Assembly: GCA_045597865.1 (NCBI GenBank)
Contig: JAZLKX010000052.1
Location: 43,017-107,016, forward strand
Source: Bacilli bacterium
GTDB lineage: Bacteria; Bacillota_I; Bacilli_A; RFN20; CAG-826
Length of the DNA stretch: 64,000 nucleotides
Reading direction: 5' to 3'
The first letter of the stretch is position 1. Each line of letters opens with the position of its first letter. This document shows positions 22,371-22,608 of this stretch, one piece after another. The translations under genes and the position numbers were made by a program. A model generated the notes under the pieces. That model saw nothing but the letters and a program-made list of their open reading frames with translations. It had not been told where the DNA came from and did not search any database.

Positions 22371-22608
22371 GATTTTGAAAACTTAACAAAAATAAATACT
22401 AAAAATTTTAAAGATGGATACAGCAACTCTACCAATTTAATGGAAGACCGGCGTGGCTCGCTTAATAGCTCCTCTTTACCGTTAGGTTAACGGTTTCCAT
22501 CTTGCTTTGAAATTCATAAGATGCATACAGCAAATTAAAAGATCTGTAAAATCAAAAAAAAACGCATCTTGATATTTTTAAGGCACCCCAACTTTAGGTG
22601 CCTTTTTA
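22371..22608 (+). ncRNA. Candidate structured ncRNA (two tandem stem-closed domains), possibly a Y-RNA-like partner of the downstream vWA protein
   Basis: Bounded by P5 and the terminator at 22580-22608. No ORF longer than 16 codons. Direct repeat AAGATG(G/C)ATACAGCAA at 22411 and 22518; each copy pairs with a downstream complement (22496-22503, 22564-22570). Confidence 0.4.
22580..22608 (+). terminator. Rho-independent terminator
   Basis: aaggcacc / ggtgcctt 8-bp stem plus T-run, 58 nt upstream of the next ATG. Confidence 0.75.

What the first reader, a model, noticed from the sequence alone, without database searches (positions are those of the whole stretch)
22371..22608. Promoter- and terminator-bounded 240-nt structured non-coding RNA candidate
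Class-I promoter P5 (22313-22370) fires into a region with no ORF longer than 16 codons. That region ends at a clean terminator, aaggcacc/ggtgcctt plus Ts (22580-22608), 58 nt before the next gene. Inside are two tandem domains built on a direct repeat, AAGATGGATACAGCAA (22411) and AAGATGCATACAGCAA (22518). Each 5' AAGATGSA pairs with a downstream complement: TCCATCTT at 22496-22503 closes an approximately 93-nt domain, and GCATCTT at 22564-22570 closes an approximately 53-nt domain. The first domain holds a 7-bp hairpin (accgtta/taacggt, 22478-22494). It also has an alternative pairing, atggaagaccg / cggtttccat. The RNA sits immediately upstream of a vWA protein with a Ro60-like layout. Bacterial and phage Ro orthologues are typically encoded next to their Y-RNA partners.
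Basis: partly seen in the sequence, partly recalled or inferred. Interest (0 to 1): 0.7.

Follow-up and report, generated by a model that had tools for sequence, protein, structure and literature searches.

The report
Y-RNA-like partner of phage Ro-like protein
The 240-nt gap holds a real, conserved non-coding RNA made of two copies of a stem-plus-ACAGCAA module found next to one family of Ro60-like ring proteins in hundreds of phages, which points to a widespread, apparently undescribed cousin of the Ro60/Y-RNA particle.

Summary
In detail: promoter, two stem-closed tandem domains, inner hairpin and terminator are all at the stated coordinates. Each domain is a copy of a conserved module: a helix (u)AAGRYRC/GYRYCUU-G with an invariant single-stranded ACAGCAA directly after its 5' strand. 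A covariance model of this module finds only these two sites in the 64-kb window. In 91 loci that encode homologues of the downstream protein it finds 105 sites, 102 of them on the gene's strand. The helix covaries strongly. The protein (Pfam DUF2828+DUF7788, intact MIDAS motif) has no sequence match to TROVE. Its predicted structure nevertheless matches only Ro60 structures over its full length, best of all the Ro60 of Thermus phage phiLo. In relatives the same module is grafted onto tRNAs with an expanded anticodon loop and onto YrlA-type tRNA mimics. It lies beside the gene in cultured Staphylococcus, Listeria, Enterococcus, Campylobacter, Bacillus, FelixO1-like and cluster-L mycobacteriophages. 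Rfam has no model for it and no paper on it was found. Best reading: a Y-RNA-like partner, possibly also an autoregulatory operator, of a second Ro60-like family. Binding is inferred, not shown. I rate it a new variant of a known kind.

The parts
22313..22341 (+). Sigma-70-like promoter (-35 TTGACG 22313-22318, 17-nt spacer, -10 TATATT 22336-22341). It is part of a recurring promoter-plus-leader block spanning about 22305-22383. The predicted transcription start is about 22346-22349.
   Evidence: Promoter scan. The same block recurs at about 11230, 19410 and 41413. It is conserved in L010.
22346..22608 (+). Predicted primary transcript of about 260 nt, from promoter to terminator. It has no credible ORF.
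   Evidence: This is inferred; no expression data are available.
22411..22504 (+). Module copy 1 (domain 1). Its parts are 5' arm AAGATGGA 22411-22418, invariant ACAGCAA 22420-22426, a variable interior, 3' arm TCCATCTT 22496-22503 and a conserved G at 22504.
   Evidence: R1 hit at 22407-22508, 27.1 bits, E = 3.7e-4, not in the seed. Conserved in L010, L011, L092 and L094 despite unrelated interiors.
22478..22494 (+). Hairpin just before the 3' arm of domain 1, in the position of a tRNA T arm. The stem ACCGT/ACGGT is conserved, but the loop is not T-loop-like.
   Evidence: MFE fold. The 5-bp stem is kept in L010 (C to U giving a G-U pair) and in L011 (9-nt loop).
22517..22571 (+). Module copy 2 (domain 2). 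Its parts are 5' arm TAAGATGC 22517-22524, invariant ACAGCAA 22527-22533, an interior with a possible 3-bp stem and 7-nt anticodon-like loop (GAT CTGTAAA ATC), and 3' arm GCATCTTG 22564-22571.
   Evidence: R1 hit at 22514-22575, 48.8 bits; this sequence was in the seed, so the match is by construction. Conserved in L010 and L011. Related proximal domains lie next to the SD in L001, L002, L003, L012, L092 and L094.
22580..22608 (+). Intrinsic terminator: 8-bp G+C-rich stem, 9-nt loop and a T run.
   Evidence: Compensatory changes are seen in L011 and a G-U pair in L010.
22609..22668 (+). Conserved hairpin that sequesters the Shine-Dalgarno sequence (AAGGAG 22653-22658) or the start codon of the downstream gene.
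   Evidence: Inverted repeat I5. Fold at -25.1 kcal/mol, z = -3.6, with 0 of 200 shuffles as good. The same structure forms in L011, where the outer pair changes A-U to U-A.
22666..24180 (+). Ro60-like ring protein (Pfam DUF2828 + DUF7788 vWA domain, MIDAS motif D298-x-S-x-S...T372...D403; PHROG 850 'RNA-binding protein'). It is the inferred protein partner of the RNA.
   Evidence: Pfam. PHROGs. Invariant columns. AlphaFold model with pLDDT 82. The top five PDB matches are all Ro60.

Best explanation
Window 22346-22608 encodes a Y-RNA-like non-coding RNA that partners the Ro60-like ring protein encoded directly downstream (22666-24180).

The transcript is driven by a recurring phage promoter and ends at an intrinsic terminator. 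It folds into two tandem stem-closed domains. Each domain presents the same recognition module: a helix with a conserved base, (u)AAGAUGN/NCAUCUU-G, and an invariant single-stranded ACAGCAA that leaves the top of the 5' strand.

Inferred mechanism: each module is a binding site for the Ro60-like protein. By analogy with Ro60 and Y RNA, the helix would lie on the ring surface and the single-stranded motif at or in the cavity. The RNA would then be stabilised by the protein, gate access of other RNAs to the cavity, and/or tether the protein to other factors.

In relatives the same module is grafted onto tRNA bodies and YrlA-type tRNA mimics, and it sits in phage tRNA arrays. The particle therefore most likely acts on or with tRNA-handling machinery during infection.

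In this phage, read-through of the terminator yields the mRNA, whose ribosome-binding site is locked in a conserved hairpin. The SD-proximal module may therefore also serve as an autoregulatory operator.

What is shown: the sequence features, conservation, covariation, gene linkage and the predicted protein fold. What is inferred: transcription, binding and function.
For: Specificity of the module:
- Model R1 finds only the two domains in 64 kb on both strands.
- In 91 loci encoding homologues it finds 105 sites with E < 0.1, of which 102 are on the gene's strand. At E < 0.01, 75 are upstream and 18 downstream on that strand, and 52 loci are positive.
- A permuted form (closed hairpin plus ACAGCAA inside a tRNA) occurs in 48 loci. 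Together the two forms cover 79 of 91 loci.

Covariation:
- 87.9% and 88.6% of cells are paired, against 33-51% when the partners are slid.
- 8 of 9 pairs show changes on both sides, and 0 of 500 shuffles reach the observed score.
- ACAGCAA is kept in 103-105 of 105 hits, though the model itself selects for it.

Search starting from the RNA:
- 65 IMG/VR loci carry a full module. 25 of them have a DUF2828 homologue in the few kb held, and in all 25 it is on the same strand.
- Only 4 of 55 loci with the 17-mer alone have such a gene.

Cultured phages:
- The module lies beside the gene, on the same strand, in Staphylococcus S-CoN_Ph6, Listeria 20422-1, Enterococcus iF6, Campylobacter F356, Bacillus KoopaTroopa, FelixO1-like BPS17S6 and mycobacteriophage Tyson.
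- In iF6 four units are followed by their own terminator and then a separate promoter for the gene.

Protein:
- AlphaFold gives pLDDT 82 and pTM 0.79.
- The five best PDB matches are all Ro60 (9kop, 9l5y, 9nep, 2nvo, 1yvp). Four of the five have TM 0.53-0.56 normalised to the query (2nvo only 0.33). E-values run from 2e-8 to 7e-6, over about 510-580 columns.
- The MIDAS residues are invariant.

Precedent:
- The Ro60 of Thermus phage phiLo binds two Y-RNA-like RNAs encoded just upstream of its gene (PMC12135203).
- YrlA RNAs lie within 4 kb of, and on the same strand as, TROVE Ro60 genes (PMC4201824).
- Units in Tyson and iF6 score 36-48 bits on Rfam YrlA.
Against: - No expression or binding data exist.
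- There is no match to Rfam Y_RNA or YrlA in the window, even at E < 10.
- The protein has no Pfam TROVE hit and no BLASTP similarity to a true phage Ro60, Bxz1 gp220.
- The conserved motif (ACAGCAA) differs from the Ro60-binding motifs GNCGAAN0-1G and GGUCCGA.
- The window copies have no tRNA-like domain.
- In several close relatives the proximal domain abuts the SD with no terminator, as a 5' leader would.
- 12 of 91 loci show no module within the DNA held. L093 keeps the gene with only a 70-nt upstream gap.
- The model was seeded from helices I selected myself, so the percentage paired is partly circular. The covariation, strand bias and non-seed hits are not.
Confidence: 0.7

Rival explanations
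1. It is purely a cis-acting 5' leader. On this reading the two modules are operators or attenuator elements through which the protein, or another factor, controls termination at 22580-22608 and translation of its own mRNA. There would be no separate trans-acting RNA.
For: - 75 of 97 strong hits lie upstream of the gene on its strand.
- In L001, L002, L008, L092 and L094 the proximal module ends 1-13 nt before the SD.
- The window has a terminator followed by a conserved SD-sequestering hairpin. No separate promoter-like site for the gene was found downstream of 22341.
Against: - 18 hits lie downstream of the gene. In Staphylococcus S-CoN_Ph6 and mycobacteriophage Tyson all units are downstream, and the Tyson array is followed by a terminator-like hairpin.
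- In Enterococcus iF6 the units are followed by a terminator and then a promoter for the gene.
- Modules occur up to 2 kb away, in tandem arrays of up to six, inside tRNA arrays and embedded in tRNA-like bodies. This is not leader behaviour.
- This role may still be an additional one for domain 2.
Confidence: 0.17
2. The elements are degenerate tRNA-derived RNAs (pseudo-tRNAs or decoys) from phage tRNA arrays. They would act independently of the neighbouring protein, for example as decoys for host anticodon nucleases or as processing signals.
For: - Many relatives are tRNAs with an expanded anticodon loop. They score 29-56 bits on Rfam tRNA but ARAGORN does not call them.
- Many simple units keep a 7-nt Y-U-NNN-A-A loop.
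- The gene and the modules sit in tRNA arrays in KoopaTroopa, Klebsiella phi1_175008, Listeria and FelixO1-like phages.
Against: - The window has no tRNA genes at all, and its two units have no T or D arm.
- The invariant part is the helix plus ACAGCAA, not the tRNA features.
- Linkage to the DUF2828 gene holds in loci without tRNA arrays, and the module is on the gene's strand in nearly all cases.
Confidence: 0.08
3. It is a chance arrangement of hairpins and a repeat in an AT-rich intergenic spacer, with no function beyond a promoter and a terminator.
For: - The fold z-score is only -2.3 and the region is 30% G+C.
- Many short inverted repeats are expected in such sequence.
Against: - Domain 1 is found by a model built from other loci at E = 3.7e-4.
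- The region is conserved down to 72% and about 61-64% protein identity, with unrelated interiors.
- The family covaries strongly.
Confidence: 0.01

Closest known systems
Thermus phage phiLo Ro60 with Yrl1 and Yrl2 (PMC12135203; PDB 9KOP, 9L5Y)
   Same: - A phage-encoded ring protein made of helical repeats plus a vWA domain. It is the best structural match to the window protein.
- Two Y-RNA-like RNAs are encoded in tandem immediately upstream of the gene.
- Each has a stem formed by its 5' and 3' ends, flanking a loop that carries a short conserved motif.
- Binding was shown experimentally in that system, together with a complex containing host PNPase.
   Different: - The profile of the window's family finds no PDB sequence at E <= 1, phiLo Ro60 included.
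- The motif there is CGAA, not ACAGCAA.
- No binding data exist for the window's family.
Bacterial and mycobacteriophage YrlA/YrlB Y RNAs with Rsr (TROVE Ro60) (PMC4201824; Rfam RF02553)
   Same: - The RNAs are encoded within a few kb of the ring-protein gene, on the same strand, and often as two or more RNAs from one precursor.
- A terminal stem carries a conserved motif at its 5' strand.
- One RNA carries a tRNA-like domain and another (YrlB) is a simple hairpin.
- Units next to DUF2828 genes in Tyson and iF6 contain the same permuted T arm, acceptor-like stem and D arm. They score 29-48 bits on RF02553.
   Different: - All hits are below the Rfam gathering score of 69, and there is none in the window.
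- The motif is ACAGCAA rather than GNCGAAN0-1G.
- The partner is DUF2828/DUF7788, not TROVE/vWA_Ro60. Bxz1 gp220 is TROVE, has a weak YrlA match and has no module.
- Many relatives use a different topology: an unpermuted tRNA with the module in its anticodon loop.
Metazoan Y RNAs with Ro60 (Rfam RF00019)
   Same: - A small RNA whose paired ends form the protein-binding stem around a variable loop.
- The protein is a ring that also binds helix-plus-single-strand RNAs (PDB 1YVP and 9NEP are among the fold matches).
   Different: - There is no sequence or covariance-model similarity.
- The bulged GGUCCGA helix is absent.
- Those RNAs are RNA polymerase III transcripts.
Autoregulatory translational operators of phage RNA-binding proteins (general class, from textbook knowledge)
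   Same: A protein-binding hairpin lies next to the SD of the protein's own gene. This fits the proximal domain in L001, L002, L092 and L094.
   Different: Operators do not occur downstream of the gene, in tandem arrays, or on tRNA scaffolds.

Membership tests
YrlA / bacterial Y RNA (Rfam RF02553) | Scores at or above the family's covariance-model gathering score (69 bits). | tested here: not met
   There is no hit in the window at gathering or at E < 10 in 22200-22720. Relatives in Tyson and iF6 reach only 29-48 bits.
YrlA / bacterial Y RNA (Rfam RF02553) | Encoded within about 4 kb of a Ro60 orthologue and on the same strand. | tested here: met
   The RNA ends 58 nt upstream of a Ro60-like gene. 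Across 91 loci, 102 of 105 hits are on the gene's strand. The protein is Ro60-like by predicted fold only.
YrlA / bacterial Y RNA (Rfam RF02553) | GNCGAAN0-1G motif (CGAA core) near the 5' end, at the terminal stem. | tested here: not met
   The invariant motif in that position is ACAGCAA. No GNCGAA is present in either domain.
YrlA / bacterial Y RNA (Rfam RF02553) | tRNA-like domain with T and D arms. | tested here: not met
   The window has no tRNA, tmRNA or YrlA match. Only a 5-bp hairpin occupies the T-arm position, and its loop is not T-loop-like. The feature is present in relatives.
YrlA / bacterial Y RNA (Rfam RF02553) | Physically bound and stabilised by the Ro60 protein. | not testable with these tools
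   This needs RIP, EMSA or co-purification.
Ro60 / TROVE protein family (partner protein) | Pfam TROVE (PF05731) and vWA_Ro60 (PF25045) domains. | tested here: not met
   Only DUF2828, DUF7788 and weak VWA_2 are found, even at E < 10. Bxz1 gp220 does hit TROVE and vWA_Ro60 and shows no BLASTP similarity to the window protein.
Ro60 / TROVE protein family (partner protein) | Ring of alpha-helical repeats followed by a vWA domain with a MIDAS motif. | tested here: met
   In the AlphaFold model (pLDDT 82), residues 33-281 are helical and residues 293-480 form a vWA fold. The only full-length PDB matches are five Ro60 structures. DxSxS, T and D are invariant in 24 homologues. This rests on a predicted structure, not a solved one.
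Cis-regulatory 5' leader / attenuator | Always located in the 5' UTR of the regulated gene. | tested here: not met
   18 hits lie downstream of the gene. Arrays occur up to 2 kb away and inside tRNA clusters. In iF6 the array is followed by a terminator and then a promoter-like site ahead of the gene.
tRNA | Cloverleaf recognised by ARAGORN or by Rfam RF00005. | tested here: not met
   There are no tRNA calls anywhere in the window.

The most novel reading that the evidence does not exclude
DUF2828/DUF7788 proteins form a second, sequence-unrelated-looking branch of Ro60-like rings. In the INPHARED phage collection, 710 of 50,697 records match, and there are thousands more in gut and rumen metagenomes. 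This branch would have its own undescribed class of partner RNAs, defined by a portable helix-plus-ACAGCAA module.

Phages graft that module onto plain hairpins, onto whole tRNAs (in the anticodon loop) and onto YrlA-type tRNA mimics. The resulting particle would be a general phage device for tRNA or RNA surveillance, repair or counter-defence. It would be present in model phages of the Felix O1, P100/A511, KVP40 and Fletchervirus groups.
Probability: 0.5. Interest if true: 0.85.

Novelty: new variant of a known kind. Interest (0 to 1): 0.74.

Why it matters
Ro60/Y-RNA particles are known from animals, about 5% of bacteria and a few phages (that scope is from PMC4201824). What they do in phage infection is barely explored.

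The family found here is far commoner in phages than canonical Ro60. It is present in easily grown model phages. It also comes with a simple, mutable RNA signature (a helix plus ACAGCAA). Together these make direct tests possible: pull-downs, EMSA with motif mutants, cryo-EM and deletion phenotypes.

It also explains several unannotated gaps next to these genes, and at least two short 'hypothetical protein' calls in a deposited phage genome. It identifies a set of long 'tRNAs' that tRNA finders either reject or score oddly. Finally, it shows one protein-recognition module moved between three different tRNA-like scaffolds, which bears on how Y RNAs evolved from tRNAs.

Tried and rejected
- Rfam on the window, at gathering and at E < 10, gave only noise. 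The best hit was the terminator hairpin matching Phe_leader.
- Nucleotide searches of INPHARED with the region and with the gene gave no match.
- A sequence-profile search of the PDB with the protein family gave nothing relevant. Only the fold search was informative.
- The neighbouring AAA ATPase as a third conserved component: rejected. It is found only in L010, L011 and L094.
- The 12-nt perfect inverted repeat 22371-22382 / 22632-22643 that brackets the element: the upstream arm is absent from L011 and both arms are unchanged in L010, so there is no support for it. It remains unexplained.
- A 15-base pattern search for close relatives of domain 1 in the metagenome and viral collections gave almost only chance hits. 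Two held loci showing one and the same module inside a tRNA array, plus one doubtful hit, were kept.
- The supplementary phage list of Chen et al. 2014 is not held.
- No separate covariance model was built for the tRNA-embedded form. It was characterised with regular expressions, the Rfam tRNA model and RNAfold only.

Full report
**1. What is in the sequence**

- A promoter-like site, TTGACG-17-TATATT, lies at 22313-22341. It is the only one on the + strand in 21500-25800.
- It is part of a longer promoter-plus-leader block (TACCATTKAC...TATATTTTAC.CGTAA...AAAACAA...ACTGAGGA). That block recurs at about 11230, 19410 and 41413, so it is very likely a genuine promoter class of this phage.
- Downstream lie a 24-nt direct repeat (83% identity), the two closing helices, the 22478-22494 hairpin and the hairpin-plus-T-run at 22580-22608.
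- The minimum-free-energy fold contains all of these. It gives -49.7 kcal/mol with z = -2.3.
- The consensus terminator scan missed the terminator only because its loop is 9 nt.
- One small correction: a 21-codon TTG ORF exists on the + strand at 22507-22572.
- Rfam finds nothing in the window and ARAGORN finds no tRNA.

**2. The downstream protein**

- Gene 22666-24180 matches Pfam DUF2828 plus DUF7788, a vWA domain.
- It also matches PHROG 850, named 'RNA-binding protein'.
- It has no TROVE hit, even at E < 10.
- An AlphaFold model built on 24 homologues has pLDDT 82 and pTM 0.79.
- Its five best PDB matches, and its only full-length ones, are Ro60 structures: phage phiLo Ro60 (9kop, 9l5y), Ro60 with misfolded pre-5S rRNA (9nep), Deinococcus Rsr (2nvo) and Xenopus Ro with RNAs (1yvp).
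- Four of the five have TM 0.53-0.56 normalised to the query; 2nvo reaches only 0.33. E-values run from 2e-8 to 7e-6.
- The MIDAS residues (DGSGS, T372, D403) are invariant in the family.

**3. The comparative result**

Upstream regions of homologues in IMG/VR showed the same arrangement by eye. Each has a 5' arm, then ACAGCAA, then a variable stretch, then a 3' arm complementary to the 5' arm. The arms differ between loci: AGATGGA/TCCATCT, GATTC/GAATC, GAGATGG/CCATCTC and GAGACAC/GTGTCTC.

The closest relatives keep both domains, the terminator and the leader:
- L010 (94% protein identity) and L011 (72%) keep all of these, although the interior of domain 1 carries large insertions.
- L092 and L094 (61-63%) and L003 and L012 (61-62%) also have a distal and a proximal domain, with unrelated interiors.

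I collected 80 more loci from genomes and MAGs and aligned 40 units (A3).
- The helix is 87.9% paired, against 33-51% when the partners are slid.
- 8 of 9 pairs show changes on both sides, and no shuffle out of 500 reaches the observed covariation.
- The units were chosen by a helix-finding script. The percentage paired is therefore partly circular, but the covariation and the conserved AAG...CUUG base are not.

**4. Covariance model R1**

Model R1 gives the following.
- In the 64-kb window, with filters off and on both strands, only the two domains score below E = 1. Domain 2, which was in the seed, scores 48.8 bits. Domain 1, which was not, scores 27.1 bits with E = 3.7e-4.
- Across the 91 loci there are 105 hits at E < 0.1, and 102 are on the gene's strand.
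- At E < 0.01, 75 hits on that strand are upstream of the gene and 18 are downstream, and 52 loci are positive.
- In the aligned hits, ACAGCAA is present in 103-105 of 105 and the G after the 3' arm in 98 of 104. The central pairs are at least 96% paired with many pair types, for example A-U 45, G-C 45 and U-A 9 at one position.

**5. The same module on other scaffolds**

Many loci carry 110-138-nt elements directly beside the gene. Rfam's tRNA model scores these at 29-56 bits, but ARAGORN does not call them.
- They are ordinary cloverleaves whose anticodon loop is replaced by about 50 nt. That insert contains a closed hairpin (for example AAGTCTTGACAAAGACTT) followed by ACAGCAA.
- This is the same helix and motif, circularly permuted.
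- The form occurs in 48 loci. Together with the simple form it covers 79 of 91 loci, and several of the remaining loci have truncated flanks.
- Many simple units keep an inner hairpin with a 7-nt Y-U-NNN-A-A loop, and some keep a true T arm.

**6. Cultured phages**

tblastn finds the protein in 710 of 50,697 phage records. These include FelixO1-like, KVP40-like, P100-like Listeria, Staphylococcus, Enterococcus, Campylobacter, Bacillus and mycobacteriophages.

R1 finds modules beside the gene, all on its strand:
- Staphylococcus S-CoN_Ph6: three units immediately downstream, the first and third overlapping two short annotated 'hypothetical proteins'.
- Listeria 20422-1: three units upstream, with an RtcB-type ligase 1.3 kb downstream of the gene.
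- Enterococcus iF6, Campylobacter F356 and Bacillus KoopaTroopa: in KoopaTroopa the units sit in and after a 20-tRNA array.
- FelixO1-like BPS17S6.

In iF6 four units are followed by a terminator and then a promoter for the gene. Two of the units enclose a permuted T arm, acceptor-like stem and D arm, and score 34-48 bits on Rfam YrlA, below the gathering score of 69.

Mycobacteriophage Tyson gp53 is annotated 'Ro-like RNA binding protein' and belongs to the DUF2828 family. Three units follow its gene. The middle one (GGACTC-tAGCAGCAA...GAGTCC) scores 36 bits on YrlA.

By contrast, Bxz1 gp220 is a true TROVE plus vWA_Ro60 protein.
- It has a weak YrlA match upstream, at 32.5 bits, below the gathering score.
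- It has no module.
- It shows no BLASTP similarity to the window protein.

Two distinct protein families therefore each have their own RNA signature.

**7. A search starting from the RNA**

A 15-base module pattern in IMG/VR returned 120 loci.
- 65 had the matching 3' arm. Of these, 25 had a DUF2828 homologue in the few kb held, always on the same strand.
- Only 4 of the 55 loci without the 3' arm had one.

**8. What is already known**

- Chen et al. 2014 found YrlA RNAs within 4 kb of, and on the same strand as, TROVE Ro60 genes in 254 bacteria and 22 phages. Those RNAs carry a GNCGAAN0-1G motif and a tRNA-like domain (PMC4201824).
- I found no paper linking DUF2828 proteins to an RNA partner or describing the ACAGCAA module.

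**9. Interpretation**

The window RNA is best read as a minimal, YrlB-like member of a large family of Y-RNA-like partners of DUF2828-type Ro-like proteins. It carries two protein-binding modules.

It fails the membership tests for curated YrlA on four counts: model score, motif, tRNA-like domain and TROVE partner. I therefore file it as a new variant, not as a member.

A leader or operator role is a real possibility for the SD-proximal domain.
- In the window, the terminator is followed by a conserved hairpin that locks the SD. The fold has z = -3.6, and L011 shows a compensatory change in the outer pair.
- No separate promoter for the gene was detected.
- However, downstream units, units that are terminator-bounded, and units embedded in tRNAs in other phages all argue against a purely cis-acting role.

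Transcription, binding and biological function remain inferred.

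Noticed in passing
window 18261-21269: An NAD-salvage gene cluster lies just upstream. It comprises an NMN-adenylyltransferase-like plus NUDIX protein (18261-19346), an isochorismatase/nicotinamidase-like ORF (19820-20401; the Pfam hit is on its homologues in L010 and L011) and NAD synthase (20472-21269). 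The cluster is syntenic with the RNA and the Ro-like gene in L010, L011, L092 and L094.
   Followed up: partly
window ~11230-11300, ~19380-19440, 22305-22383, ~41385-41445: A recurring promoter-plus-leader block (TACCATTKAC-N17-TATATTTTAC.CGTAA..AAAACAA..ACTGAGGA). At 22313 its SD-like GAGGA is followed only by a 3-codon TTG mini-ORF.
   Followed up: partly
window 22371-22382 and 22632-22643: A perfect 12-nt inverted repeat (GATTTTGAAAAC / GTTTTCAAAATC) brackets both domains and the terminator. It is identical in L010, and its upstream arm is absent from L011. Its meaning is unknown.
   Followed up: partly
window 22609-22668: A conserved hairpin sequesters the Shine-Dalgarno sequence or start codon of the Ro-like gene immediately after the terminator. 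L011 shows a compensatory change in the outer pair.
   Followed up: yes
window 24257-25450 and 25718-26227: An AAA ATPase (PHROG 2376) and an Hsp20 follow the Ro-like gene. The ATPase is shared only with the closest relatives (L010, L011, L094). Hsp20 is shared somewhat more widely, with L001, L002, L011, L012, L092 and L094.
   Followed up: partly
L338 5510-5599 and 5729-5857 (Staphylococcus phage S-CoN_Ph6): Two short annotated 'hypothetical protein' CDSs overlap the first and third module RNAs (5519-5590 and 5668-5734), with the second module (5596-5664) between them. They are probably mis-annotations.
   Followed up: no
L339 6813-8024 (Listeria phage 20422-1): An RtcB-type RNA ligase lies 1.3 kb downstream of the DUF2828 gene and its three module RNAs. 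This recalls the rsr-yrlA-rtcB operon of Salmonella.
   Followed up: no
L070, L080, L084 (Methanobrevibacter MAG contigs): The gene and two to four tandem modules also occur on contigs binned with methanogenic archaea. Either viruses of archaea carry the system or the contigs are mis-binned.
   Followed up: no
L340 3375-3430, 3530-3585, 3710-3765 (Enterococcus phage iF6): A conserved spacer (GGTTTTGG..TAGCT....CCTTAATGGG.GCCG.A.CATAAAGAA) precedes each of the last three of the four RNA units. It may be a processing signal.
   Followed up: no
L226 5-75 and L321 (IMG/VR phage tRNA array): A module with the same arms as window domain 1 (AAGATGGATACAGCAA...TCCATCTTG) sits between tRNA genes in an unrelated phage contig. 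No Ro-like gene was checked for in the DNA held.
   Followed up: no
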